Origin: Candidatus Parcubacteria bacterium | GTDB lineage: Bacteria > Patescibacteriota > Saccharimonadia > Saccharimonadales > Saccharimonadaceae | Assembly: GCA_023391075.1 (NCBI GenBank) | Contig: JAEWBQ010000004.1 | Span: forward strand, 60,379 to 84,378 | Direction: 5' to 3' | DNA: 24,000 bases | Shown here: positions 145 to 23,488 of the stretch, piece after piece | Numbering within the stretch: the stretch's first letter is position 1 | Layout of the letters: every line of letters begins with the position of its first letter | The notes under the pieces: generated by a model | Database searches by the model: none | Told to the model about the DNA's origin: nothing | Seen by the model: the letters and a program-made list of their open reading frames with translations, nothing else | Program-made: the position numbers and the translations under genes

Positions 145-522
145 TTACGCGCGCTGAACGGCAGTTTCTGGCTGAGTTTTCGAAAACAGCACGACCAGGA
201 TGACTGCGATACCGACAGCGACGTGTGGCACCCAAACGTTCCAGGCCTGACCCGCGAAGCCAAACAGCCATGGTGACAGCAGCAGGAAGAGCGATGCTAC
301 GACATCAATAATTAGGTGCACAGGCATACCGATAACCTTGACGAGTCCCCATTCATAATTAGTGAACAGACTGTACAGGAAGAGGCCGATACCCAGGACA
401 ACCGGGATGACAACCGCTGGGCCGCCTACTGATGAGAAGCCGAAAATCATTGGGGCAAACATCAGGGCAATGGCAACCACGTAATCGAGGACACCGTGAA
501 CTTTGGTAGGAATAAAACGCAT
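145..522 (-). CDS. SPW-repeat-like 4-TM membrane protein, paralog 1 (125 aa)
   Basis: The start was moved to the internal ATG at 522, which has AAGGAG 8 nt upstream. The protein is MRFIPTKVHGVLDYVVAIALMFAPMIFGF...LLLSPWLFGF. The two halves look like an internal duplication, and there is an SPW motif in a TM helix. It is about half identical by eye to the 1290..1709 product. Confidence 0.8.
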   Translation of the reverse strand: MRFIPTKVHGVLDYVVAIALMFAPMIFGFSSVGGPAVVIPVVLGIGLFLYSLFTNYEWGLVKVIGMPVHLIIDVVASLFLLLSPWLFGFAGQAWNVWVPHVAVGIAVILVVLFSKTQPETAVQRA

Positions 523-551
523 ATATTGCTCCTTATTTAAGTTATGTGGCA

Positions 552-594
552 ATCATAGCGCGGCCAGCGCCAGGAGTTTGTAAGGAATATTACG
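552..594 (-). promoter_or_regulatory. Candidate promoter of SPW paralog 1: -10 TATGAT plus a Crp/Fnr-type box centred near -41.5
   Basis: On the minus strand TATGAT is rc of 552..557. After a 21-nt spacer (558..578) comes the box 579..594, which reads TGTAAggaataTTACG on the plus strand. The same layout recurs at 1740..1782. Confidence 0.45.
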
Positions 595-603
595 GACAAG
601 CCG

Positions 604-609
604 TATAAT
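604..609 (+). promoter_or_regulatory. -10 TATAAT of the Crp/Fnr regulator gene (leaderless geometry)
   Basis: TATAAT at 604..609 is followed by 6 nt (actggt) and then ATG at 616. No SD and no convincing -35 are present. The box at 579..594 occupies the -37..-22 region. Confidence 0.5.
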
Positions 610-615
610 ACTGGT

Positions 616-1239
616 ATGGATAATATCGACTTTGTCAAAGCCTTTCCTCTCCGGCCGTTCACTAAGGGCGAAGTACTCCTCAGTGAAGGCGACGCCGCGC
701 ATACGCTGCTTGCCATACAGACCGGATACGTTAAAGTAAGCGCGATTGACGACAGCGGCAGCCAAAAGTTGCTATGGATTGCGGGGCGCTACGACGTCAT
801 ACCGGTCGAGCGTATGTTCAGCATGCGGACGAATCTACGTTATTTTTATACCGCCCTCAGCAATGGCGCTGCCTACCATGTCGACAAGCAGACCTTCCTA
901 GACAAGGCAGCCGACTCCCCTGCGCTCATGACAGAAATCGCCCGTGGCATCAGTCAGCACTACGACGAGCTGCTCGAACGGCTGCAAGGCGCGGGGCACC
1001 TGACTGTCCGCGAGCGCTTGATTGCAGTCCTTCGCTACATTGTCCAACATTTCAGCAGCGACACTACTGTTGATTTGTATGAGCTCGGCCTGCGCCTAAC
1101 TCATCAAGATCTTGCCGACATGATCGGCACTACCCGCGAAACCACCTCGCTCACTCTGGCCCAGCTCAAGCGCGAGGGCATGATCGACTACGGCCGGGAT
1201 CATTTCACCATTCATACCGAGCAACTGCTAAGTGCATAA
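616..1239 (+). CDS. Crp/Fnr-family transcriptional regulator (N-terminal cNMP-binding-like domain plus C-terminal HTH)
   Basis: 207 aa. The C-terminal segment THQDLADMIGTTRETTSLTLAQLKREGMI is a typical Crp/Fnr HTH. The N-terminal beta-roll-like region is FTKGEVLLSEGDAAHTLLAIQTGYVKV. There is no FNR-type Cys cluster and no obvious RS/TA cAMP-contact motif. Confidence 0.9.
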   Translation: MDNIDFVKAFPLRPFTKGEVLLSEGDAAHTLLAIQTGYVKVSAIDDSGSQKLLWIAGRYDVIPVERMFSMRTNLRYFYTALSNGAAYHVDKQTFLDKAADSPALMTEIARGISQHYDELLERLQGAGHLTVRERLIAVLRYIVQHFSSDTTVDLYELGLRLTHQDLADMIGTTRETTSLTLAQLKREGMIDYGRDHFTIHTEQLLSA

Positions 1240-1241
1240 TA

Positions 1242-1271
1242 ATACGCCGCTCTTTGTATAGAGCGGCGTAT
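1242..1271. terminator. Hairpin between the convergent regulator gene and SPW paralog 2
   Basis: An 11-bp perfect stem (atacgccgctc 1242..1252 with gagcggcgtat 1261..1271) has an 8-nt loop. The minus-strand tail TTATTATGC is moderately U-rich. There is no U-run on the plus side. Confidence 0.5.
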
Positions 1272-1289
1272 CCATGGAGTAGCGACTGA

Positions 1290-1709
1290 CTACAACGCAG
1301 CGCGTGGATGGCGAGGCGTGTGGTGATGGCGGTGCCACTTGTGATCGGCGGCTTCGGTTTCAGGAGCCGAAATCAGCGTCACGATAATCAGGCCGATGCC
1401 CACGACGATATGCGGCAGCCACGCGTTCATCGCCTGATCGGCAAAGCCGAACAAGAACGGCGACAGCGCCAGAGCTGCGGCCAAGATCACGTCGATCATC
1501 ATGTGATATGGCACGCTGATGAGCTTGACGAGGCCCACTTCGTACTGCGTCAGAACGCTATAGAGCGCCAGCAGGATACCGAAAACGATCGGAATCACTA
1601 CTGCTGCTCCGCCGACGCTGGCGAACCCGAATAGAAACGGTGCCAAAATCAGCGCTAACGCTACTACTAAATCAATTATTCCATGTATTTTTGTCGGTAT
1701 CACTCGCAT
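1290..1709 (-). CDS. SPW-repeat-like 4-TM membrane protein, paralog 2 (139 aa) with a His-rich C-terminal tail
   Basis: The start was moved to ATG at 1709, which has AGGAGG 5 nt upstream (rc of 1715..1720). The protein is MRVIPTKIHGIIDLVVALALILAPFLFGF...ALSPFLFGF and ends DHKWHRHHHTPRHPRAAL. Confidence 0.8.
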   Translation of the reverse strand: MRVIPTKIHGIIDLVVALALILAPFLFGFASVGGAAVVIPIVFGILLALYSVLTQYEVGLVKLISVPYHMMIDVILAAALALSPFLFGFADQAMNAWLPHIVVGIGLIIVTLISAPETEAADHKWHRHHHTPRHPRAAL

Positions 1710-1739
1710 AGATCCCTCCTGGTTACCCTTTGTGCCTCT

Positions 1740-1782
1740 ATCATATCCCGGCCATATTAAGGTGTATGTTAAGTATTTTACA
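1740..1782 (-). promoter_or_regulatory. Candidate promoter of SPW paralog 2: -10 TATGAT plus a Crp/Fnr-type box centred near -41.5
   Basis: On the minus strand TATGAT is rc of 1740..1745. After a 21-nt spacer (1746..1766) comes the box 1767..1782, which reads TGTTAagtattTTACA on the plus strand. Confidence 0.45.
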
Positions 1783-1785
1783 TAT

Positions 1786-1813
1786 ATCAAAAACCGCCCG
1801 AATGGGGCGGTTT
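1786..1813 (-). terminator. Rho-independent terminator of rpsL-rpsG
   Basis: The stem pairs aaaccgccc (1791..1799) with gggcggttt (1805..1813) around a 5-nt loop. On the minus strand a T-run follows (TTTTTGATAT). Confidence 0.75.
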
Positions 1814-1832
1814 AAGACTGCGCGGGTTGTGA

Positions 1833-2312
1833 TTAGCCGCGGGCAAAGTGCGCGAATGCGCGGTTGGCTTCGGCCATCTTGTGTGTGTCTTCCTTCTTCT
1901 TGAAGGCTGCACCGGCTTCGTTGTAAGCATCAACGATTTCGAGTGCGAGACGCTGAGAGTATGGCATGCCGCTACGAGCGCGAGCTGACTGCACAAGCCA
2001 TGAGAATGCGTAATGCATCTGGCGGTGACCAGAAACTGGGAATGGAATCTGGTAGTTTGCGCCACCGACACGGCGTGACTTAACTTCAAAGTTTGGCGAA
2101 ACGTTCTTGAGTGCCTTTTCGAACACTGCGAGTGGATCTTCGCTATCGACTTTCTTAGCAGCGACTTCGAGTGCGGTGTAGACAGCACGCTCAGCAACAA
2201 GCTTCTTGCCGTCAAGCATCGACTTGTTGATCAGGCGCTGGACGAGCGGGCTCTGGTACTTGCGGTCTGGCTTTGGTACGCGAACGAGCGATTTGGTTAC
2301 TTTACGAGGCAT
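1833..2312 (-). CDS. rpsG: 30S ribosomal protein S7
   Basis: 159 aa, MPRKVTKSLVRVPKPDRKYQSPLVQRLINKSMLDGKK...NRAFAHFARG, a canonical S7. Its AAGGAGGA SD lies inside the rpsL 3' end. Confidence 0.98.
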   Translation of the reverse strand: MPRKVTKSLVRVPKPDRKYQSPLVQRLINKSMLDGKKLVAERAVYTALEVAAKKVDSEDPLAVFEKALKNVSPNFEVKSRRVGGANYQIPFPVSGHRQMHYAFSWLVQSARARSGMPYSQRLALEIVDAYNEAGAAFKKKEDTHKMAEANRAFAHFARG

Positions 2313-2314
2313 GA

Positions 2315-2728
2315 CTACTTGTCCTCCTTCTTAGCACCGTACTTCGAACGGCCCTGCTTGCGCTTTGAGACACCCTGGAGGTCCAGTGCACCACGAACGA
2401 TGTGGTAACGAACACCTGGAAGGTCTGGCACGCGACCACCACGCACGAGCACAACGGCGTGCTCCTGGAGGTTGTGGCCTTCACCACCGATATAAGCCCA
2501 AACTTCCTGACCGTTGGTCAGACGAACACGAGCAACCTTGCGGAGTGCCGAGTTAGGCTTCTTTGGTGTCTTGGTGGTTACCTTGATACAGACACCACGC
2601 TTCAGCGGAGCATCTTGATCGTAGTAACGAGTCTTGAGTGCGTTGTGGATGCGACCAAGTGCTGGAGACTTCGATTTCTTCGCAGCAGTCTTGCGTGGCT
2701 TACGCACGAGTTGGTTGATAGTTGGCAT
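2315..2728 (-). CDS. rpsL: 30S ribosomal protein S12
   Basis: 137 aa, [13 protein letters not shown]...[20 protein letters not shown]...[18 protein letters not shown], a canonical S12. The SD is ACAGGAG, 5 nt upstream of the ATG. Confidence 0.98.
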
Positions 2729-2881
2729 GAAAACTCCTGTTGTTCATGGTTAATGAGACGAGATTGTCTCTGGTTTTATGGGTTGGCCTCAGCATGACCG
2801 CGCCATCTTTACTCTTCGGCTGCCTATCGTGTGTACACATTCTCTCACGGCTAGACTCCAAAAAGTGGAAACTCATCTAAT

Positions 2882-2910
2882 ATCGTAGCAGATTAAGGTA
2901 ATTATTTCAA
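2882..2910 (-). promoter_or_regulatory. Candidate rpsL promoter (TTGAAA-17-TACGAT)
   Basis: On the minus strand the -35 TTGAAA is rc of 2905..2910 and the -10 TACGAT is rc of 2882..2887, with a 17-nt spacer. The same hexamer pair sits upstream of tRNA-Leu(CAG). This implies a leader of about 146 nt. Confidence 0.45.
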
Positions 2911-2920
2911 GATATGAAGG

Positions 2921-2970
2921 GAGCCCGGAGGCTCAACGAAGGGATTACCTTCGCGGGCCTTCACGGGCTC
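2921..2970 (-). terminator. Compound hairpin after island ORF F (T1)
   Basis: The outer stem pairs gagcccg (2921..2927) with cgggctc (2964..2970). The inner stem pairs cgaagg (2937..2942) with ccttcg (2948..2953). The tail CCTTCATATCTTG is only weakly U-rich. Confidence 0.4.
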
Positions 2971-2995
2971 AGGAACCGGCACGTACGCCGGACCG

Positions 2996-3280
2996 TCATG
3001 CCGGCTGCGGCGCAGCTGCCTTTGGGGCGGCCTGCGCCAACACGTTCGACAAACCGCACTTTGCAAGGCGCAAGCTTGCCGAGGTAGTTGCCTCGCACAG
3101 AGCATCGAGCACGGCCAGGGCGTCCTCGTAGTGCTTGTGCTCAAGGGCGGTTTCGACCTTGCTGCAGGCTTCGGAATGAGCCTCCCGATGCGGCTCGAGG
3201 CGGAACCTCACGTCGGCAACGGCAGCGGCGATGTTTGCCTGGGCCTGCCGGCGCTCTCCAACTGCATCAAAAGCTTTCAC
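2996..3280 (-). CDS. Island ORF F: hypothetical 94-aa Ala-rich, probably helical protein
   Basis: GTG start at 3280 with AAGGGG 6 nt upstream. Third codon positions are GC-rich. No domain is recognisable by eye. It has flanking signals in the same orientation (a weak promoter and terminator T1). Confidence 0.5.
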   Translation of the reverse strand: MKAFDAVGERRQAQANIAAAVADVRFRLEPHREAHSEACSKVETALEHKHYEDALAVLDALCEATTSASLRLAKCGLSNVLAQAAPKAAAPQPA

Positions 3281-3328
3281 AAGATTCCCCTTGTCTGTGT
3301 GCGGTCGCGGTGTTGCGATTCCTTTCCT

Positions 3329-3357
3329 AGCCTACGCCCCTCCTCACTAGGGGTCAA
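3329..3357 (-). promoter_or_regulatory. Weak candidate promoter for ORF F (TTGACC-17-TAGGCT)
   Basis: The -35 TTGACC is rc of 3352..3357 and the -10 TAGGCT is rc of 3329..3334, with a 17-nt spacer. There is an AT-rich stretch upstream. Confidence 0.3.
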
Positions 3358-3380
3358 ATACAAAATTTACAGCGTTATGT

Positions 3381-3441
3381 GGAAAACGAAAAGAGCCCGG
3401 GAAGAGCCATCTGCGACCATAGTCGCGGACTCTTTCCGGGC
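3381..3441 (-). terminator. Compound hairpin terminator after island ORF E (T2)
   Basis: The 12-bp outer stem (3395..3406 with 3430..3441) has one mismatch. The inner stem is ctgcgac/gtcgcgg (3411..3428). On the minus strand CTTTTCGTTTTCC follows. Confidence 0.55.
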
Positions 3442-3445
3442 ACAC

Positions 3446-3799
3446 CTACTGCTTGACGAAGTGTTGCTCAAGCAGATTTGCCAGGTCGGCGTGACCCTGC
3501 CTGCGCAGGTGCCGAGCAGCCCACTGGTATTGCTCATCTTCGAAGTACTGAAAACACAGTTCTTCGATGGCAAACACTTGGGCGAAATGCTCGATTTGCC
3601 GATCAGTCAGGCGGCCATTGCTGACACGCCGAACCTCCTCTTGCGCTCGTTGCGTACGCTGCTGGCGGGCGTTAATGTTTTCCATAACCTTCCCCCGTGG
3701 CTTGACTCCACAGCGCTCTACGGCTGGCGAGGTTGGTTTCACCTCCTTACGCCGTCTGCGCTTCAGCTTTTCCGTCGTTGAGCTCCCCAGCTTGCCCAT
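3446..3799 (-). CDS. Island ORF E: hypothetical protein (117 aa from ATG 3799; alternative 79-aa form from ATG 3685)
   Basis: The N-terminal region is basic (KLKRRRRKEVKP) and the C-terminal part looks helical. The alternative start at 3685 has GGGGGAAGG just upstream. The long N-terminal extension in the ORF track (to 3907) runs into terminator T3 and was rejected. Confidence 0.45.
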   Translation of the reverse strand: MGKLGSSTTEKLKRRRRKEVKPTSPAVERCGVKPRGKVMENINARQQRTQRAQEEVRRVSNGRLTDRQIEHFAQVFAIEELCFQYFEDEQYQWAARHLRRQGHADLANLLEQHFVKQ

Positions 3800-3904
3800 T
3801 GCATATCTTTCTGTCTCGTAGGTGCATGACACACGACCGCACGGTGTGGCCGAGCTGCCACTAGGATAGTCCTGCGCAACGAGAAACACAATAGGTTTTG
3901 ATCC

Positions 3905-3966
3905 CAAAAATCGAAACGCCCGCCGAACCAGCTGCTACTGGAATTCAGTAGGCGATTCGACGGGCG
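3905..3966 (-). terminator. Compound hairpin terminator after island ORF D (T3)
   Basis: The 11-bp outer stem (3917..3927 with 3956..3966) is fully paired only in the minus-strand RNA, through one G-U pair. The inner stem is ctactg/cagtag (3935..3951). On the minus strand GTTTCGATTTTTGGG follows. Confidence 0.6.
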
Positions 3967-3983
3967 GATGCCCAAGGGTGGTG

Positions 3984-4136
3984 TTACGACTCATTCTCAT
4001 CTGAATCATCGACGTCTGACTCCGGCTGTTCACCGGTTTCTTCCCGGTCAAGCCATTCTTCCGCCTTCGGAGCTTCACTGGCATAGAAACCAAATCCGCT
4101 TGGAGGCGTGAAGAGCTCGGGCTTATACCCTGCCAT
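3984..4136 (-). CDS. Island ORF D: hypothetical 50-aa strongly acidic protein
   Basis: ATG at 4136 overlaps the ORF C stop as TAATG, and AAGGAG lies 5 nt upstream. The protein is MAGYKPELFTPPSGFGFYASEAPKAEEWLDREETGEQPESDVDDSDENES. The upstream 28 codons in the ORF track were rejected. Confidence 0.5.
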   Translation of the reverse strand: MAGYKPELFTPPSGFGFYASEAPKAEEWLDREETGEQPESDVDDSDENES

Positions 4137-4474
4137 TACTTCTCCTTCTCGAGGATGAGATCGAACGTACGACACACAAGCTCGATCTCTTCGTTGATTT
4201 TCCCGATGCGACCCTCGCACGTCTGACGGCGAGAGCGCAGCGCTTCGTTGGGAGGAGGCGTCGGGATAAACGTCAGACGCACCCTGAGCCGACGGCGGAG
4301 CAGCACGAGGATCCGGATGAGGTCTTCGGGCGTGGAGACGGCGAGCAAATCCTTACTTGTGACCTCGCACACCGTGTGGTACCTGCCGTACACGACGCGC
4401 TTCAAGTAAGCAAGCTTTTCTTCACGTGTCGCTTCGTCGCTGACCCGCCCGACAGGCAGGGTATGCAGAGACAT
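4136..4474 (-). CDS. Island ORF C: hypothetical 112-aa protein
   Basis: ATG at 4474 has GAGAGGAAG 7 nt upstream and sits behind a near-consensus promoter. The protein has an Arg-rich middle (LLRRRLRVRL). No domain is recognisable. Confidence 0.55.
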   Translation of the reverse strand: MSLHTLPVGRVSDEATREEKLAYLKRVVYGRYHTVCEVTSKDLLAVSTPEDLIRILVLLRRRLRVRLTFIPTPPPNEALRSRRQTCEGRIGKINEEIELVCRTFDLILEKEK

Positions 4475-4519
4475 GAGTGTACTTCCTCTCAGTAGTAGAA
4501 ACCGCTTGGGACTTTGTAA

Positions 4520-4548
4520 ATTATATCACACTTTCGCTTATTTATCAA
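4520..4548 (-). promoter_or_regulatory. Near-consensus sigma70-type promoter for ORFs C-D (TTGATA-17-TGaTATAAT)
   Basis: The -35 TTGATA is rc of 4543..4548 and the -10 TATAAT is rc of 4520..4525, with a 17-nt spacer. A TG extended -10 dinucleotide is present. Confidence 0.6.
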
Positions 4549-4552
4549 TGCT

Positions 4553-4612
4553 CAGAAAAATGAAACGGCCCGCCGAGCGGGCCTGAGTTTTGGTAAACTC
4601 GGCGGCCGTTTC
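4553..4612 (-). terminator. Compound hairpin terminator after island ORF B (T4)
   Basis: A tight hairpin ggcccgc-cga-gcgggcc (4568..4584) competes with a longer stem, gaaacggcccgccgag (4562..4577) with ctcggcggccgtttc (4598..4612). On the minus strand GTTTCATTTTTCT follows. Confidence 0.6.
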
Positions 4613-4626
4613 AGCGGGCGATTGCC

Positions 4627-4845
4627 CTAGAGCTCGAGGTGATCGTACTTGCAGACCTGGGTCAGGAAGCGGTACAGTTCACGCTTGAGCGTGTTGTTCG
4701 GATTTCCAACCATTCTGTAGTAACCGATCATCTGATCGATCTTCTGCTGGTTGGTACGGTTCTTGTCGAGGCCGGGGACCTTCGCAGAGAAATACGCGAC
4801 TCCCTCGTCGAACGTCATAGCAGCAACATCTTTGGAGCGTGGCAT
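4627..4845 (-). CDS. Island ORF B: hypothetical 72-aa protein
   Basis: The start was moved to ATG at 4845. AAGAGG lies immediately after the ORF A stop, leaving a 10-nt gap. The protein is MPRSKDVAAMTFDEGVAYFSAKVPGLDKNRTNQQKIDQMIGYYRMVGNPNNTLKRELYRFLTQVCKYDHLEL. Confidence 0.5.
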   Translation of the reverse strand: MPRSKDVAAMTFDEGVAYFSAKVPGLDKNRTNQQKIDQMIGYYRMVGNPNNTLKRELYRFLTQVCKYDHLEL

Positions 4846-4855
4846 AGTGCCTCTT

Positions 4856-5146
4856 TCAGTCGGTTGAGTACATGGTTTTGAGCTGGAGCAGGAAGTCGCC
4901 AAGACGCTTCCATTCTTGCTCCCAATGGCGATGCTCCTGCTCGCTGCCTGCATGAATCAGGCGGTGATAGAAATACACCAACAATGCTTCGAGCTCACCG
5001 ATAAGCTCATCAATCGTCGTCACACAGACAAGGCTTGACTGGTGACTGCGATACCGATCAACGGTACGCTGGATAATCCGATGAGGTTCGGGGCGAACAT
5101 CCTTTTGGACGCGTGCCTCAACCTCCTCGTAGGACAGGATGGACAA
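4856..5146 (-). CDS. Island ORF A: hypothetical protein of about 96 aa, probably helical
   Basis: The proposed start is TTG at 5146, 4 nt after AAGGAG (rc of 5151..5156) and downstream of the predicted TSS. The ORF-track start at 5212 and the ATG at 5203 both lie inside the promoter and terminator sequence. The start is uncertain. Confidence 0.45.
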   Translation of the reverse strand: MSILSYEEVEARVQKDVRPEPHRIIQRTVDRYRSHQSSLVCVTTIDELIGELEALLVYFYHRLIHAGSEQEHRHWEQEWKRLGDFLLQLKTMYSTD

Positions 5147-5183
5147 TGTTCTCCTTTGGTATTCACCATTAAGGCTAATTACT

Positions 5184-5212
5184 ATTATAGCAGAAATAAG
5201 CATAAAAAGCAA
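5184..5212 (-). promoter_or_regulatory. Near-consensus sigma70-type promoter for ORFs A-B (TTGCTT-17-TATAAT)
   Basis: The -35 TTGCTT is rc of 5207..5212 and the -10 TATAAT is rc of 5184..5189, with a 17-nt spacer. The -35 overlaps the U-tract of the rpoC terminator. Confidence 0.6.
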
Positions 5213-5239
5213 TATCCCTGCTCTTTCGAACAGGGATAT
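5203..5239 (-). terminator. Rho-independent terminator of rpoB-rpoC
   Basis: A 9-bp stem (atatccctg 5212..5220 with cagggatat 5231..5239) has a 10-nt loop. On the minus strand TTGCTTTTTATG follows. It lies 24 nt past the rpoC stop. Confidence 0.7.
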
Positions 5240-5262
5240 ATACTTGTGTGAGGTTTTATTGC

Positions 5263-8200
5263 CTAGGCGGCAAATTCGACGTCTTCGGCGATTTCGCTAG
5301 CGAAATCTTCCTCTTCGTCTTCGTTGCGGGCACCAGTACCTACAGGAATCTTGCGACCGATGATCACGTTTTCCTTGAGGCCGTGCAGGCGGTCAGCGCG
5401 GCCACTTGTGGCAGCGTTGATGAGCACGCGAGTGGTGTCCTGGAACGATGCAGCTGACAGCCAGCTATCGCTCCAGATCGAAACCTTGGTGATACCGAGG
5501 AGCAGTTGGGTGTAGCGGATTAGTTCCTTACCCTCTGCAGCCAGTTCAGCGTTCGCTTCGACGACAGCCGCCTTAGAGACGATGTCACCGGTAACGAAGG
5601 CGCTGTCACCTGGGTCTTCCACCTGTACCCGGCTGAACATCTGACGCACGATGATCTCGAGGTGCTTGTCGGCAACGTCTTGACCCTGTGCGGCGTAGAT
5701 GCGGAGCACTTCGTTGATGATGTAGCGCTGGGTTGCTTCGGTACCCTTGAGGCGCATCAGGTCGTGCAGGTTGAGTGAACCGATCGTCAGGCGGTCGCCT
5801 GCTTCTACGGTGTCACCAGCCGATACGACGAGCTGAGTTGAACCAGGGATTTCGTAGCGAACCGGCGCACCGGCATTTGCAGCCAGAACGAGCGTGTTCT
5901 CAGCGACTTCAACGACACCGTCAAATGGTGCGACGAGTGGCTTCGCTTCGCCTTCAGCGGTCGCCAGGACATCACCGACCTTGACGTTGCTGCCCGACTT
6001 GACGTTGACCGTACGGCCTTCAAGTTCGATGCGTTCAACGTGGCCAGCTTCTGGCGTCACCTGAACGATATACTTCTTGCCATCTTCCCAGACATCTACC
6101 AGACCGGTGACTTCCGTCATGTAGGCCTGACCCTTTGGCGCACGAGCTTCGAAGAGCTCTTCGACACGAGGGAGACCCTGGGTGATGTCACCACCAGCCA
6201 CACCACCGGCGTGGAAGGTACGGAGCGTCAGCTGGGTACCAGGCTCACCGACTGACTGTGCAGCGATGACACCGACTGGCTGAGCGTTGTCGATCAGCTG
6301 GTTGGTCGCCATATCGATACCGTAGCTCTTACGTGGGATACCACGCAGGTTCTTGGTCGACAGAACGCTCTGGATCTTGACTTCCTTGATCGATTCGTCA
6401 GCTTCGATAGCGTTGGCGATCTCACGGGTGATCAGCTCGTTCTTGCCGATATGACCTGGGATGTCTTCGGCGGTGTAGCGGCCGTTAAGGCGGTTACTGA
6501 AGTCGATCATCGTCAGTTCGGTTTCTGAACGGTAGATTGAGTAACCATCGTCATCACCAGCTTCGTCTTCTACTGTAAAGACGTCCTGCGACACGTCGAC
6601 CAGACGGCGGGTCAGGTAACCTGAGTCAGCGGTCTTGAGGGCGGTGTCGATCAGACCCTTACGTGCACCACGGGTGGCGACGAACTGTTCGAGTGAGCTG
6701 AGGCCCTTCTTGTAGCTTGAGCGGATAGGCAGCTCGATTTCCTTGTTGGTGGCATCCACCTGGAGACCGATCATCGCGCTCGCCAGCTTCACGTTTGAGA
6801 TATCACCACGAGCGCCAGAGTTGACCATCACCGAAATGCTGGTGTCCATGCTCTTGAGCTTGTCTTGCAGGAATTCGGTAATCTTGCGGTCAACCGTACG
6901 CCATGTCGATACGGTCAAGCTGTAACGCTCTTCGTCGGTGATGAGACCTTGGTCGTACTGCTCAGAGATGAGCGCAGCCTTGGCGTCACCCTCTGCGATG
7001 AACGCAGGGATTTCTTCGAAGTGCAGGTAGTCGTCCATGCCGGTCGATACGGCAGCAGTCGTAGCGAAGCGGAATGCCAGGCCCTTCATGCGGTCGGCGG
7101 TCTTTGCAGTCATTTCAGCACCGTACTTGTCGAAGACCTGTGCGAGTACCTTCTTGAGCTGCTTCTTGCTCTGGATCGAGTTGTCATACGGGAAATCAGC
7201 CGGCAGGATTTCGTTGAAGAAGACGCGGCCGAGCGTGGTATCGCGGATCTGGCCCTTCGTGAAGACACGGATCGGTGTCTGGAGCTGGATCGTACCCTTG
7301 TCGTAGGCCATTTCAGCTTCGTAGACAGAGCTGTATGGCTTGATGCCTTCGGTCTGAGCGGCAGGCTTTTCGTATGTCAGGTAGTAGTTACCGAGGACAA
7401 CGTCCTGACCGATGTTGAGCACTGGCGAACCGTCGGCTGGCTTCAGCAGGTTGTTGGTTGCTGACATCAGCTCGCGAGCTTCTGCCTGTGCTTCATCGCT
7501 CAGTGGCAAGTGAACAGCCATCTGGTCACCATCGTAGTCGGCGTTGAAACCGTTGGCAACGAGTGGGTGCAGCTGGATTGCCTTACCTTCGACGAGAACT
7601 GGCTGGAAGGCCTGGATAGACAGACGGTGGAGTGACGGTGCGCGGTTGAGGAGCACGTACTTGCCTTCGATAACAGCGTCGAGTGCGTCCCAGACCAGTG
7701 CGTCACCGGCTTCGATCAGACGAGTAGCAGAACGGATGTTGTGCGCGTGCTCGCCACGGATCAGCCAGCTGATAACGAATGGCTTGAACAGTTCGAGGGC
7801 CATCTGTTTTGGCAGACCACACTGGTGGATCTTGAGCTTTGGACCGACGACGATAACTGAACGGCCTGAGTAGTCGACACGCTTACCGAGAAGGTTCTGG
7901 CGGAAACGACCCTGCTTACCCTTGAGCATGTCGCTGATTGATTTCAGACGGCGGCGGCCACCGGTCGCGTTAACGGCGCGGCCACCACGAGCGGCTGAGT
8001 TGTCAATCAGTGAGTCGACGGCTTCCTGGAGCATGCGCATTTCGTTGCGGCGGATGACTTCAGGAGCGTTGAGCTCGATCAGCTTCTTGAGACGGTTGTT
8101 ACGGTTGATGACACGGCGATAGAGGTCATTGAGGTCGCTGGTCGCGAAACGGCCACCGGTCAGCTGCACCATCGGACGGAGGTCCGGCGGGATGACTGGC

Positions 8201-12643: not shown

Positions 12644-13387
12644 TTATGCTTCAATGTCCGCAATGACAATCGTGCCATCATCGATAATGTGAGAGGCGCT
12701 AAAAATCTTATTTACCGTAGCTACGGCGGTCTGACCTACGCTCCGTACTGCACTCTCCATCCACCATTGATACTCATCGTTCATGCCGTCAAATCCTATC
12801 GGTCCCAGCCCGTCCGTCGCAAACACCAGCCTATCGCCCTCACTCAGCCTCTCAAACCCCCAGATAGGCAGGTGCGAGTGAGTACTATTCGGCCTTAGTG
12901 TCAGACGGTCATGGTCTCCACCGAGGGCGTTCAAAAGTTGGTGACGCGCATTTGGGTCGTGCTGGGGCTGGGTCAGTTCATATAGGTCACCGGAAGCTGG
13001 CAAATAAAATAAACGCGAGTCGCCTGCGTGCAGCCATGCCACGTAACCATCGTCCGTTACGACGCTCCCCGTGAAGGTCGTTACTGATCCCGTCTCCTTC
13101 ACTGCCCTGTGCAGCTCACTGTATACCTCAGGCAGCGCCTCGAGGACGGCTTGGATACCCAGCCGAAACGAAGGTGCATACTTCACGAATGCTTCGCACG
13201 CTGCCTCTGCGGCAAGAGCGCCGTCGCTGCTTCCTCCTACCCCGTCAGCAACCGCAAAGAACTGTGTATCAACATCAGCTACCAGGCGGTCCTGTCCGCT
13301 TGGTTGGCCCGGCGGCAAGTCATAATGAAGAAGCTGCGCCACTTCCCGACGCGTGCGACTACGAAAAGCCACCTCGCCAATACTCAT
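12644..13387 (-). CDS. PP2C-family Ser/Thr protein phosphatase (247 aa)
   Basis: PP2C signature blocks are present: FAVADGVGG, HAGDSRLF, FATDGL, and C-terminal IIDDGTIVIADI. I prefer the ATG at 13387 over the SD-less TTG at 13417. Confidence 0.85.
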   Translation of the reverse strand: MSIGEVAFRSRTRREVAQLLHYDLPPGQPSGQDRLVADVDTQFFAVADGVGGSSDGALAAEAACEAFVKYAPSFRLGIQAVLEALPEVYSELHRAVKETGSVTTFTGSVVTDDGYVAWLHAGDSRLFYLPASGDLYELTQPQHDPNARHQLLNALGGDHDRLTLRPNSTHSHLPIWGFERLSEGDRLVFATDGLGPIGFDGMNDEYQWWMESAVRSVGQTAVATVNKIFSASHIIDDGTIVIADIEA

Positions 13388-13397
13388 TGTAAGGAGA

Positions 13398-13406
13398 TTT
13401 ATATCA
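13398..13406 (-). promoter_or_regulatory. Extended -10 (TGaTATAAA) 10 nt upstream of the PP2C ATG
   Basis: rc of 13398..13406 reads TGATATAAA. The 10 nt before ATG 13387 contain no SD on the sense strand. Confidence 0.4.
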
Positions 13407-13426
13407 CAAGTTATCAAACAATCAAA

Positions 13427-23013: not shown

Positions 23014-23436
23014 CTAGCTACCACTCGGTTTGCAGTCGTAATACTGACTGTAGCCCGAGGGATACGTGCCCGGCCGGTAGTAGCCGGGCCACCCGGGATA
23101 CGTCACGTACCCGGGATGACTGTTGTCCGGCTGCGGAGCGGGAAGCTTTTCGGGAGCGGTCGCAGGATGCGCGACCTCGGGATGGGCCTCGCCGCTTGTA
23201 GCGTGGCCTCCTCCGGAGGTGCCACCGTCAGCTGCATGCCCGCCGGAAGATTCGTGTCCGCTGCCGCCACCATGTCCGCCACCACCACCTCCCTTCTCGG
23301 GAGCGTAGATAGCGAGGGTGACACTATTTGTCCCGATCGCGGTAGGGGTGTCGCACGACTTCTGCTGGCCACATGCCGTCAAGGACAGCGCGGCAAGGAG
23401 TGTGATTCCAGCCGCCGTAACCAATTTGCGAAACAT
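23014..23436 (-). CDS. Lipoprotein with a Gly/His-rich low-complexity region and a Pro/Tyr/Gly-rich C-terminus (140 aa)
   Basis: ATG at 23436 has GAAGGG 6 nt upstream. The signal peptide plus lipobox is MFRKLVTAAGITLLAALSLTA|C. The low-complexity region is GGGGGGHGGGSGHESSGGHAADGGTSGGGHATSGEAHPEVAHP, followed by PGYVTYPGWPGYYRPGTYPSGYSQYY. Confidence 0.7.
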   Translation of the reverse strand: MFRKLVTAAGITLLAALSLTACGQQKSCDTPTAIGTNSVTLAIYAPEKGGGGGGHGGGSGHESSGGHAADGGTSGGGHATSGEAHPEVAHPATAPEKLPAPQPDNSHPGYVTYPGWPGYYRPGTYPSGYSQYYDCKPSGS

Positions 23437-23488
23437 ATGTTTCCCTTCTTGCAAAGATGATTTGAGGTCCGATGATCTATCAATTATA

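What the first reader, a model, noticed from the sequence alone, without database searches (positions are those of the whole stretch)
2911..5212. Accessory mini-island of six small orphan ORFs between rpoC and rpsL, built as four self-contained promoter-ORF-terminator cassettes
Seen in the sequence: the 2.5 kb between the rpoC stop (5263) and the rpsL start (2728) holds six minus-strand ORFs of 50-117 aa. I recognise no domain in any of them. They form four units. Unit A+B runs 4627..5146, C+D runs 3984..4474, E runs 3446..3799 and F runs 2996..3280. Two units begin with near-consensus promoters (TTGCTT-17-TATAAT and TTGATA-17-TGaTATAAT). Each unit ends in a long compound hairpin followed by a U-tract. 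The island is tightly bounded. Its first -35 overlaps the U-tract of the rpoC terminator, and its last hairpin abuts the -35 of the rpsL candidate promoter. By eye, ORF F and its surroundings are more GC-rich than the flanking core genes. Established knowledge: the rpoBC to rpsL-rpsG junction is among the most conserved neighbourhoods in bacteria, and it normally holds at most one small conserved gene. Inference: this is a lineage-specific insertion of independently and probably strongly expressed small proteins next to the RNA polymerase genes. Their function is unknown. Candidates include small regulators or modulators, anti-defence or host-interaction factors, or toxin/antidote-like pairs. 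This is the best candidate in the window for an undescribed system.
Basis: partly seen in the sequence, partly recalled or inferred. Interest (0 to 1): 0.7.

Follow-up and report, generated by a model that had tools for sequence, protein, structure and literature searches.

The report
Fast-evolving orphan small genes, rpoC–rpsL hotspot
Between the RNA polymerase and ribosomal-protein genes of an uncultured Saccharibacteria bacterium lie six real small genes found only in its closest relatives; their function is unknown, they evolve fast, and they sit at a junction whose contents differ between most species of this group.

Summary
Six minus-strand ORFs (96, 72, 112, 50, 117/79 and 94 aa) lie between rpoC and rpsL, in four units that each have a promoter-like site and a hairpin plus U-tract.

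They are real genes. Metagenome contigs from close relatives, with identical RpsL, keep them open and in synteny, with dN/dS of 0.1–0.4. An automatic gene caller picked the same six.

The host is Candidatus Saccharibacteria. The six families are orphans:
- A full HMMER scan of 1.84 billion proteins found only 12 representatives, all from this clade.
- Pfam, NCBIfam, PHROGs, PADLOC, PDB sequences and Foldseek gave nothing.

The models are all-helical, and no transmembrane-strength hydrophobic segment was found.

The junction is not conserved in this group. In 60 species representatives the rpoC–rpsL gap runs from 71 to 4986 bp and holds unrelated cargo.

Within the clade, promoter and terminator blocks are 76–94% identical, with compensatory stem changes. 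The proteins between them range from 78% identity to unrecognisable, and similarity relationships change from unit to unit.

C and D are translationally coupled, oppositely charged, and apparently fused in one relative, so they probably form a complex.

No mobile-element, integron or phage signature was found, and composition is host-like.

Function remains unknown; a lineage-specific accessory or conflict-type role is the best guess.

The parts
5212..5239 (-). rpoC intrinsic terminator (12-bp stem; the U-tract 5211..5202 overlaps the -35 of the first island unit)
   Evidence: The stem shows compensatory changes in L001 and L005 (block T0).
5184..5212 (-). Promoter-like site P0 of unit A+B (TTGCTT-17-TATAAT)
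   Evidence: Read from the sequence. Invariant in L001 and L005 (block T0). Not listed by the scanner.
4856..5146 (-). ORF A, 96 aa, acidic (pI 5.8), TTG start with an AAAGGAG ribosome-binding site
   Evidence: Orthologues at 52-66% aa identity with dN/dS about 0.2. Called as 96 aa on L091. Modelled as helical with low to moderate confidence.
4627..4845 (-). ORF B, 72 aa, basic (pI 9.2), 10 nt after the A stop
   Evidence: 78% aa identity and dN/dS 0.15 against L005. Distant homologues in L008 (126 aa, E 2e-5) and L092 (77 aa, E 1e-12). pLDDT 70-86, helical.
4556..4583 (-). Terminator after B (7 G-C pairs plus GTTTCATTTTT)
   Evidence: Conserved in L001, L005 and L008 (block T1).
4520..4548 (-). 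Promoter-like site P1 of unit C+D (TTGATA-17-TGnTATAAT, 11 of 12 consensus positions, extended -10)
4136..4474 (-). ORF C, 112 aa, basic (pI 9.4), modelled with four helices and conserved Arg80, Arg83 and Arg89 on the long last helix
   Evidence: dN/dS 0.25-0.39; pLDDT 80-91 over residues 11-110. hhalign against the positional counterpart Z family gives probability 64%.
3984..4136 (-). ORF D, 50 aa, net charge -12.5, conserved GY.P...P(S/A)GFG.YA...EWL motif followed by an acidic low-confidence tail; its start overlaps the C stop (TAATG)
   Evidence: A single ORF in L093 contains a C/Z-like part and a D-like part.
3906..3966 (-). Terminator after D: a long compound hairpin (3966..3917) plus TTTCGATTTTT
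   Evidence: 21 predicted pairs, 3 with compensatory changes across six relatives. Also present in L010, where the rpsL promoter follows it directly.
3863..3891 (-). Promoter-like site P2 of unit E (TTGTGT-17-TATCCT)
   Evidence: Read. The hexamers are conserved in L001, L005, L008 and L009 (block T2). Weak -10; inference only.
3446..3799 (-). ORF E, 117 aa, pI 10.2: a basic N-terminal 38 residues plus a helical domain with a conserved FQYFED motif. An alternative start at 3685 (79 aa) has a strong ribosome-binding site.
   Evidence: The ATG at 3799 is conserved and there are no indels over the 114 nt down to 3685 in seven variants, with a third-position excess. Gene callers prefer 79 aa.
3383..3441 (-). 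Terminator after E: compound hairpin (3441..3395) plus TCTTTTCGTTTT
   Evidence: 17 predicted pairs, 2 with compensatory changes across seven relatives.
3329..3357 (-). Promoter-like site P3 of unit F (TTGACC-17-TAGGCT), followed by a conserved 5' leader
   Evidence: Read. Conserved in six relatives, including those that carry the dissimilar 120-aa F' at this position (block T3).
2996..3280 (-). ORF F, 94 aa, Ala-rich, helical, GTG start
   Evidence: dN/dS 0.11-0.38; sequence held in the NCBI, ENA and Logan collections; pLDDT 81-92.
2921..2970 (-). Hairpin after F, with a weak U-tract, abutting the rpsL promoter
   Evidence: Conserved after both F and F' (block T4).
2882..2910 (-). rpsL promoter-like site (TTGAAA-17-TACGAT) marking the right boundary of the island
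   Evidence: The leader 2729..2880 is about 90% conserved within the clade and about 72% in other species.

Best explanation
The region is a clade-restricted (roughly genus-level) cluster of six genuine small protein genes in a Candidatus Saccharibacteria genome. It lies in a site whose contents differ between species of this group: the stretch between the rpoC terminator and the rpsL promoter.

Shown:
- The genes are translated-type ORFs under purifying selection, but their proteins change several to more than ten times faster than those of neighbouring genes.
- They have no relatives outside the clade.
- They are predicted to be helical proteins, and none has a transmembrane-strength hydrophobic segment.
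- The promoter and terminator blocks between them are conserved better than the proteins.
- Similarity between lineages changes from unit to unit.

Inferred:
- Four insulated sigma-70-type units (A+B, C+D, E, F) are transcribed independently and probably at a high level.
- The two very conserved flanking genes and the conserved intergenic blocks serve as homology arms for allelic exchange between related strains. This keeps the site variable without any mobile-element machinery.
- C and D, and probably A and B, act as heteromeric pairs. The short acidic D binds the arginine-rich helix of basic C.
- The set has a lineage-specific accessory role of the kind that evolves fast, such as conflict, addiction, immunity or host interaction. 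It is not a core role in transcription or translation.
For: Real genes:
- The ORFs are kept open and syntenic in L001-L010 and L091-L095.
- dN/dS is 0.1-0.4 for all six.
- Gene-caller calls match the six ORFs.
- Antisense open stretches are not conserved.

Host: the 80 best-matching loci from the genome scan are almost all labelled Saccharibacteria or Saccharimonadales.

Orphans:
- phmmer against 1.84e9 representatives found 12 hits, all belonging to the island's own families.
- tblastn found nothing in the 80 fetched species-representative loci.
- No match in JGI metagenomes, IMG/VR, phage records or plasmid records.
- No match in Pfam, PHROGs, PADLOC or NCBIfam.
- No fold neighbour in PDB or BFVD.

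Hotspot:
- The gap is 71-4986 bp, median 1247, in 60 species.
- The 68 gap ORFs of at least 100 aa fall into 37 clusters; Pfam hits among the cargo include pilin, LamG, LysM, hydrolase and kinase families.

Fast protein evolution against a normal background:
- Island dN is 0.13-0.5, against 0.00-0.09 in rpoC, rpsL, rpsG, the SPW genes and crp.
- Background dS in the non-ribosomal neighbours is already 0.66 to saturated.

Conserved regulatory blocks: intergenic blocks are 76-94% identical, with compensatory stem changes.

Mosaicism:
- L005 groups with the window for A+B but with L001 for C through F'.
- L008 shares F with the window but has other genes at the A and B positions.
- L010 lacks E and F.

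C-D pairing:
- The TAATG overlap.
- Net charges of about +4.7 and -12.5.
- A single ORF joining both parts in L093.

Native composition: GC3 and codon fit are within the host range.
Against: - No expression, proteomic or interaction data exist. Promoter strength is inferred from consensus matches alone.
- AlphaFold gave no confident C-D interface; the D part has pLDDT below about 60.
- The fused ORF rests on one short contig assembled from a public sequencing run (L093) and could be an assembly or frameshift artefact.
- Recombination is inferred from incongruent similarities among only three to six lineages, with saturated dS. No formal test was run.
- Synteny maintained across dS of about 0.7-1 fits ordinary vertically inherited lineage-specific genes at least as well as conflict systems.
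- The functional class is a guess.
Confidence: 0.6

Rival explanations
1. A+B and C+D are type II toxin-antitoxin-like addiction modules, and E and F are solitary relatives or regulators. One partner of each pair is a growth inhibitor that is neutralised by direct binding of the other.
For: - Two bicistronic pairs of small genes carry opposite charges: acidic A with basic B, and basic C with very acidic D.
- C and D are translationally coupled through the TAATG overlap.
- Each pair has its own promoter-like site.
- The pairs sit in a variable hotspot and diverge fast.
Against: - No match to any toxin or antitoxin family in Pfam, NCBIfam or PADLOC.
- The models are all-helical and have no fold neighbour.
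- No DNA-binding antitoxin domain was found.
- By eye there is no obvious operator palindrome at the promoters.
- Synteny is stable across a whole clade rather than patchy.
- A natural C-D fusion would be unusual for a classical module.
Confidence: 0.15
2. The proteins are conflict factors of another kind: anti-phage defence, immunity against toxins of the host bacterium or of competitors, or intracellular modulators used in the epibiotic lifestyle. An arms race drives their rapid divergence.
For: - High dN against a normal background.
- Allelic classes that differ between close lineages.
- Location in a site where gene content turns over across the whole group.
- Regulatory blocks conserved more strongly than the proteins.
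Against: - dN/dS is below 1 throughout, and no site-level test was possible.
- No PADLOC or PHROG match.
- No N-terminal hydrophobic or transmembrane-strength segment, so no sign of export.
- Nothing in the neighbourhood suggests defence.
Confidence: 0.15
3. The proteins are lineage-specific accessory factors of the transcription or translation machinery, for example a delta-like acidic-tail factor or a basic ribosome- or RNA-binding protein. They are encoded next to rpoBC and rpsL for co-regulation.
For: - Position between rpoC and rpsL.
- Near-consensus promoter-like sites.
- The acidic, low-confidence tail of D and the K/R-rich N-terminus of E.
- From my own knowledge, Bacillus carries ybxF at the same junction.
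Against: - The genes are restricted to one narrow clade and evolve several to more than ten times faster than neighbouring genes.
- Other Saccharibacteria carry unrelated cargo, or almost nothing, at this junction.
- No similarity to delta, epsilon, omega, L7Ae or any ribosomal protein family.
Confidence: 0.07
4. The region is a remnant of a mobile element (an integron-like cassette array, prophage or integrative element), or it consists of non-functional ORFs.
For: The array has a cassette-like look: small same-strand ORFs, each followed by an inverted repeat.
Against: - No attC core-site pairs were found (0 observed).
- By my reading of the translations, no integrase is evident among the window ORFs of at least 90 aa; this was not profile-tested.
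- There are no meaningful flanking direct repeats, only a 16-nt pair at 81% identity.
- Composition is host-like.
- No phage, plasmid or IMG/VR similarity.
- The hairpins are followed by U-tracts and behave as terminators.
- The ORFs are under purifying selection.
Confidence: 0.03

Closest known systems
Core-gene-flanked integration or variability hotspots of bacterial chromosomes, including the 'defence hotspots' described in E. coli and Pseudomonas (from my own knowledge, not checked in papers here)
   Same: - The same two conserved flanking genes appear in many genomes, with unrelated content between them.
- No dedicated mobility genes are present, so turnover is plausibly by homologous recombination in the flanks.
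   Different: - The flanks are rpoC and rpsL, which in most bacteria form a tight, conserved junction.
- The cargo here is six orphan small genes with no recognisable defence or mobile function.
- Conserved internal promoter and terminator blocks may act as additional exchange points.
Type II toxin-antitoxin modules
   Same: Small bicistronic, translationally coupled pairs with opposite charge, each with its own promoter-like site, sitting in a site whose content varies.
   Different: - No homology or fold match to any known toxin or antitoxin.
- Predicted to be all-helical.
- Inherited in synteny within the clade.
- Apparently fused in one relative.
ybxF (rplGB, an L7Ae-like protein) between rpoC and rpsL in Bacillus (from my own knowledge)
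   Same: A small gene occupies the same junction.
   Different: ybxF is a single conserved K-turn-binding protein of a universal family. Here there are six clade-specific orphans with no L7Ae signal.
Integron gene-cassette arrays, including clusters of attC sites without an integrase
   Same: Small same-strand ORFs of unknown function, each followed by an imperfect inverted repeat, with content that varies between strains.
   Different: - No attC core sites.
- The repeats are followed by U-tracts and act as terminators.
- Each unit has its own promoter-like site.
- No integrase was seen.
Orphan or taxonomically restricted genes of Patescibacteria (CPR) genomes
   Same: Short, fast-evolving proteins without database relatives, in a reduced epibiont genome.
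   Different: Here six of them are clustered, individually insulated by conserved regulatory blocks, and sit at a defined hotspot. That makes them unusually tractable to study.

Membership tests
Core-gene-flanked variable hotspot | The same conserved flanking genes are adjacent to the site in many genomes | tested here: met
   rpoC 3' end and rpsL were both found, in the same orientation, in 60 of 80 species-representative loci.
Core-gene-flanked variable hotspot | Gene content between the flanks differs among genomes | tested here: met
   The gap is 71-4986 bp. The 68 ORFs of at least 100 aa fall into 37 clusters, and Pfam content is diverse. None is homologous to the six ORFs.
Core-gene-flanked variable hotspot | Evidence of exchange (phylogenetic incongruence) inside the site | tested here: inconclusive
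   L005 resembles the window in A+B and L001 in C through F'. L008 shares F with the window but not A and B. There are few lineages, dS is saturated, and no formal test was run.
Type II toxin-antitoxin module | Two adjacent, co-oriented, co-transcribed small genes | tested here: met
   A and B are 10 nt apart. C and D overlap by 1 nt. Each pair has one promoter-like site and one terminator.
Type II toxin-antitoxin module | The toxin belongs to a known toxin superfamily by sequence or fold | tested here: not met
   No Pfam, NCBIfam or PADLOC hit below E 0.01 apart from one meaningless 15-bit match. Foldseek found no hit at E <= 0.001.
Type II toxin-antitoxin module | The antitoxin has a DNA-binding domain (RHH, HTH, AbrB or Phd-like) | tested here: not met
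   No such Pfam or NCBIfam domain in any of the six proteins or in four positional variants.
Type II toxin-antitoxin module | Growth arrest by one partner, relieved by the other | not testable with these tools
   Needs expression experiments.
Integron cassette array | attC sites with R''/R' core sequences (RYYYAAC ... GTTRRRY) after each cassette | tested here: not met
   0 core-site pairs in 2700..5300 on either strand.
Integron cassette array | Promoterless cassettes expressed from a common promoter, with an intI integrase nearby | tested here: not met
   All four units have promoter-like sites conserved in relatives, two of them near-consensus. By my reading of the translations, no integrase is evident among the window ORFs of at least 90 aa; this was not profile-tested.
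Intrinsic (Rho-independent) terminators | A G+C-rich hairpin immediately followed by a U-tract, with pairing maintained in relatives | tested here: met
   Compensatory changes in 3 of 21 pairs (after D) and 2 of 17 pairs (after E). The element after F has a weak U-tract.
Prophage or phage-derived island | Similarity to phage proteins or DNA, plus integrase or att repeats | tested here: not met
   Negative in PHROGs, IMG/VR, BFVD, phage records and repeat search.
RNA polymerase accessory subunits (delta, epsilon, omega) or the L7Ae-like YbxF | Sequence membership in the corresponding Pfam or NCBIfam families | tested here: not met
   No hits. Binding to RNA polymerase or ribosomes is not testable here.

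The most novel reading that the evidence does not exclude
The six proteins, or at least the C/D and A/B pairs, are founding members of undescribed conflict or addiction systems specific to Saccharibacteria. Examples would be a new all-helical toxin with an acidic-tail antidote, or factors that modulate the epibiont-host interaction. The conserved promoter-terminator blocks would act as a built-in cassette-exchange scaffold that lets strains swap alleles by natural transformation.
Probability: 0.15. Interest if true: 0.7.

Novelty: new member of a known kind. Interest (0 to 1): 0.35.

Why it matters
Saccharibacteria have tiny genomes, so 2.3 kb of retained, apparently well-expressed orphan genes is likely to matter for their lifestyle. 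The locus gives a compact, well-delimited test case for what taxonomically restricted small proteins do in CPR bacteria: six genes and four units with conserved regulatory blocks.

It also shows that the rpoC–rpsL junction, usually treated as a fixed landmark, is a site of gene turnover in this group. That is useful to know both for annotation and as a possible neutral or permissive insertion site for genetics in these organisms.

As it stands, the result is descriptive, because no function is established.

Tried and rejected
1. Two homologous-protein searches with the six proteins concatenated returned nothing. They are invalid as evidence. Exact copies of B and F are in that collection, so the word filter evidently fails on such queries. 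The third search (Z-type protein of L094) found only itself.
The concatenated six proteins were accepted instead.
Both models are therefore single-sequence fusions, C+D and A+B+E+F. Inter-protein contacts in them are not interpretable.
6. I first read the high island dS as a sign of import from distant lineages. This was rejected after the neighbouring non-ribosomal genes gave dS of 0.66 to saturated.
7. Integron attC sites, Rfam families, flanking repeats, phage or plasmid DNA and foreign composition were all negative.
8. Literature searches found nothing on this junction or these proteins.

Full report
**What is there.** On the minus strand, rpoC ends at 5263 and rpsL starts at 2728. Between them lie six ORFs:
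- A: 4856..5146, 96 aa, TTG start behind AAAGGAG.
- B: 4627..4845, 72 aa.
- C: 4136..4474, 112 aa.
- D: 3984..4136, 50 aa. Its ATG overlaps the C stop as TAATG.
- E: 3446..3799, 117 aa. An internal start at 3685 behind GGGGGAAGG gives 79 aa.
- F: 2996..3280, 94 aa, GTG start.

The rpoC terminator (5239..5212) runs directly into TTGCTT-17-TATAAT (5212..5184). An 11-of-12 extended -10 promoter-like site lies at 4548..4520. Hairpin plus U-tract elements follow B, D and E, and a hairpin with a poorer U-tract follows F and abuts the rpsL -35 at 2910. Weaker promoter-like sites precede E (3891..3863) and F (3357..3329).

**Are they genes?** An exact look-up of RpsL retrieved ten metagenome contigs with identical RpsL (L001-L010). 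Later look-ups added L091-L095.
- The island aligns at 71-80% nucleotide identity, while the flanks align at 90-94%.
- All six ORFs are kept open in the same frames at 48-78% amino-acid identity.
- Nei-Gojobori dN/dS is 0.1-0.4 for every family.
- A gene caller on a contig identical to the window called 96, 72, 112, 50, 79 and 94 aa.
- Antisense open stretches, including a 287-codon one in the window, are not conserved.
- For E, the ATG at 3799 is present in seven variants, the 114 nt down to the internal ATG carry no indel, and third positions vary most. The long form is therefore plausible, although gene callers prefer the short one.

**Whose genome is it?** A scan of one genome per GTDB species with the RpoC C-terminus returned 80 loci, almost all labelled Candidatus Saccharibacteria or Saccharimonadales. 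The best matches were 93-95% identical.

**How widespread are the six families?**
- tblastn against those 80 loci found nothing at E <= 0.01.
- A full HMMER pass of the six concatenated proteins over 1.84 billion cluster representatives found 12 proteins. All are the window's own proteins or their island counterparts.
- JGI metagenomes, IMG/VR, phage records and plasmid records gave nothing.
- Pfam, PHROGs, PADLOC and NCBIfam gave no credible hit for the six proteins or for four positional variants.
- Profiles of the C/Z and E/W families found nothing among PDB sequences.
- Two early word-index searches with concatenated queries are void, because exact members exist in that collection.

- C is modelled confidently, with pLDDT 80-91 over residues 11-110. 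Its four helices cover residues 17-32, 40-44, 49-68 and 77-103. D is modelled with low confidence.
- B (pLDDT 70-86) and F (81-92) are helical. A and E are helical with low to moderate confidence.
- Foldseek against PDB and BFVD gave no match at E <= 0.001.
- None of the proteins has a transmembrane-strength hydrophobic segment.
- A is acidic and B basic. C is basic (net charge about +4.7) and D very acidic (-12.5).

**The junction is a hotspot.** In the 60 species representatives where both flanks were captured, the rpoC-rpsL distance ranges from 71 to 4986 bp, with a median of 1247; 12 are under 400 bp. The 68 ORFs of at least 100 aa found there fall into 37 clusters. Their Pfam content is varied: pilin N-methyl motif, LamG, LysM, RCC1, cyclopropane synthase, alpha/beta hydrolases, PAP2, diacylglycerol kinase and Ham1. 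Several recurrent families have no annotation. Outside the clade, only the rpsL leader and promoter and, in one or two representatives, the last bases of rpoC and its terminator resemble the window. The premise that this neighbourhood is invariant therefore fails for this group. The six genes are this clade's version of a variable site.

**Pattern of variation inside the clade.**
- The intergenic blocks (terminator, promoter and 5' leader) are 76-94% identical, with compensatory changes in the stems.
- Several of these blocks are more conserved than the ORFs they separate, which are 54-80% identical in most comparisons between the main lineages (L001 and L005 reach 83-91% in C to E). They are also more conserved than synonymous sites of neighbouring genes.
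- Protein change is fast. Island dN is 0.13-0.5. It is 0.00-0.02 in rpoC, rpsL and rpsG, and 0.03-0.09 in the adjacent SPW and crp genes.
- Background dS in those less biased neighbours is already 0.66 to saturated, so the island's dS is not exceptional.
- Composition and codon usage are host-like.
- Content differs unit by unit:
  - L001 has an unrelated basic 72-aa protein in place of B and a 120-aa F' in place of F.
  - L008 has a 98-aa X and a 126-aa B homologue (E 2e-5).
  - The Z family aligns collinearly with C by hhalign (probability 64%).
  - L010 carries an E-like W (E 0.004) and lacks E and F.
  - Other counterpart pairs are not significantly similar.
- L005 is nearest the window in A+B but nearest L001 in C through F'. 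All three are about equidistant in rpoC. This suggests exchange with breakpoints in the conserved blocks, but it was not formally tested.

**Interpretation.** The evidence establishes a clade-restricted cluster of real, fast-evolving, helical small proteins with no transmembrane-strength segment, arranged in four units in a class-wide variable site, without mobile-element features. How they work is inferred. The units are probably transcribed independently and strongly. A-B and C-D probably form heteromers. The role is probably accessory and possibly conflict-related. Toxin-antitoxin, defence or immunity, and transcription or translation factor readings are each possible, but none passes a membership test. 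The finding is genuine but, for now, descriptive.

Noticed in passing
window 145..2312; L001 7245..13243: The str operon is also interrupted downstream. After rpsG come an SPW-domain membrane protein, a divergently oriented Crp/Fnr regulator and a second SPW protein. In L001, fusA follows about 3.4 kb after rpsG, behind two further unannotated genes.
   Followed up: partly
window 2729..2880: The rpsL 5' leader (about 150 nt, with a hairpin at 2755..2770) is about 90% conserved in the clade and still about 72% identical in other Saccharibacteria species (L011, L013, L019, L040). There is no Rfam match, so it may be an undescribed ribosomal-protein leader.
   Followed up: partly
window 3700..3799 (minus strand): Inside the 5' part of ORF E, two nucleotide blocks are invariant in seven variants, including at third codon positions: AAGCTGGGGAGCTC and the Shine-Dalgarno-like CAAGGAGGTGAAAC. 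No start codon follows the second block at a suitable distance. Their meaning is unknown.
   Followed up: partly
L093 160..600: A single 146-aa ORF appears to join a C/Z-like protein to a D-like motif region. It comes from one 1.2-kb contig assembled from a public sequencing run (SRR26329232), so an assembly error or frameshift is not excluded.
   Followed up: partly
L014, L018, L033, L039, L059 (gap ORFs); L023, L040, L045, L047, L049, L064, L066, L068: In other Saccharibacteria the same junction often holds a recurrent acidic protein of about 230-265 aa. In others it holds a protein of about 330-360 aa that looks N-terminally anchored by eye; the same family also occurs on the opposite strand. 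No Pfam family was shared by more than three of the 55 gap ORFs scanned.
   Followed up: partly
L028 1564..1890: A species representative with a 90% identical RpoC C-terminus has a 108-aa ORF in the junction with a marginal match to the E/W profile (E 0.027 among 14,758 six-frame ORFs). The E family may therefore be somewhat older than the clade.
   Followed up: partly
window 12644..13417 (minus strand): A gene for a PP2C-type phosphatase, rather than rplJ-rplL, lies directly upstream of rpoB. The Pfam annotation (PF13672) comes from the corresponding gene on L002.
   Followed up: no
window 23014..23454 (minus strand): A 146-aa ORF has a lipoprotein-like N-terminus and a Gly/His-rich low-complexity core (GGGGGGHGGGSGHESSGGH).
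   Followed up: no
tool behaviour: The word-indexed protein search returned 8000 candidates and no hits for concatenated queries, although exact matches for parts of the query are in its collection. Negative results from long or composite queries should not be trusted.
   Followed up: yes
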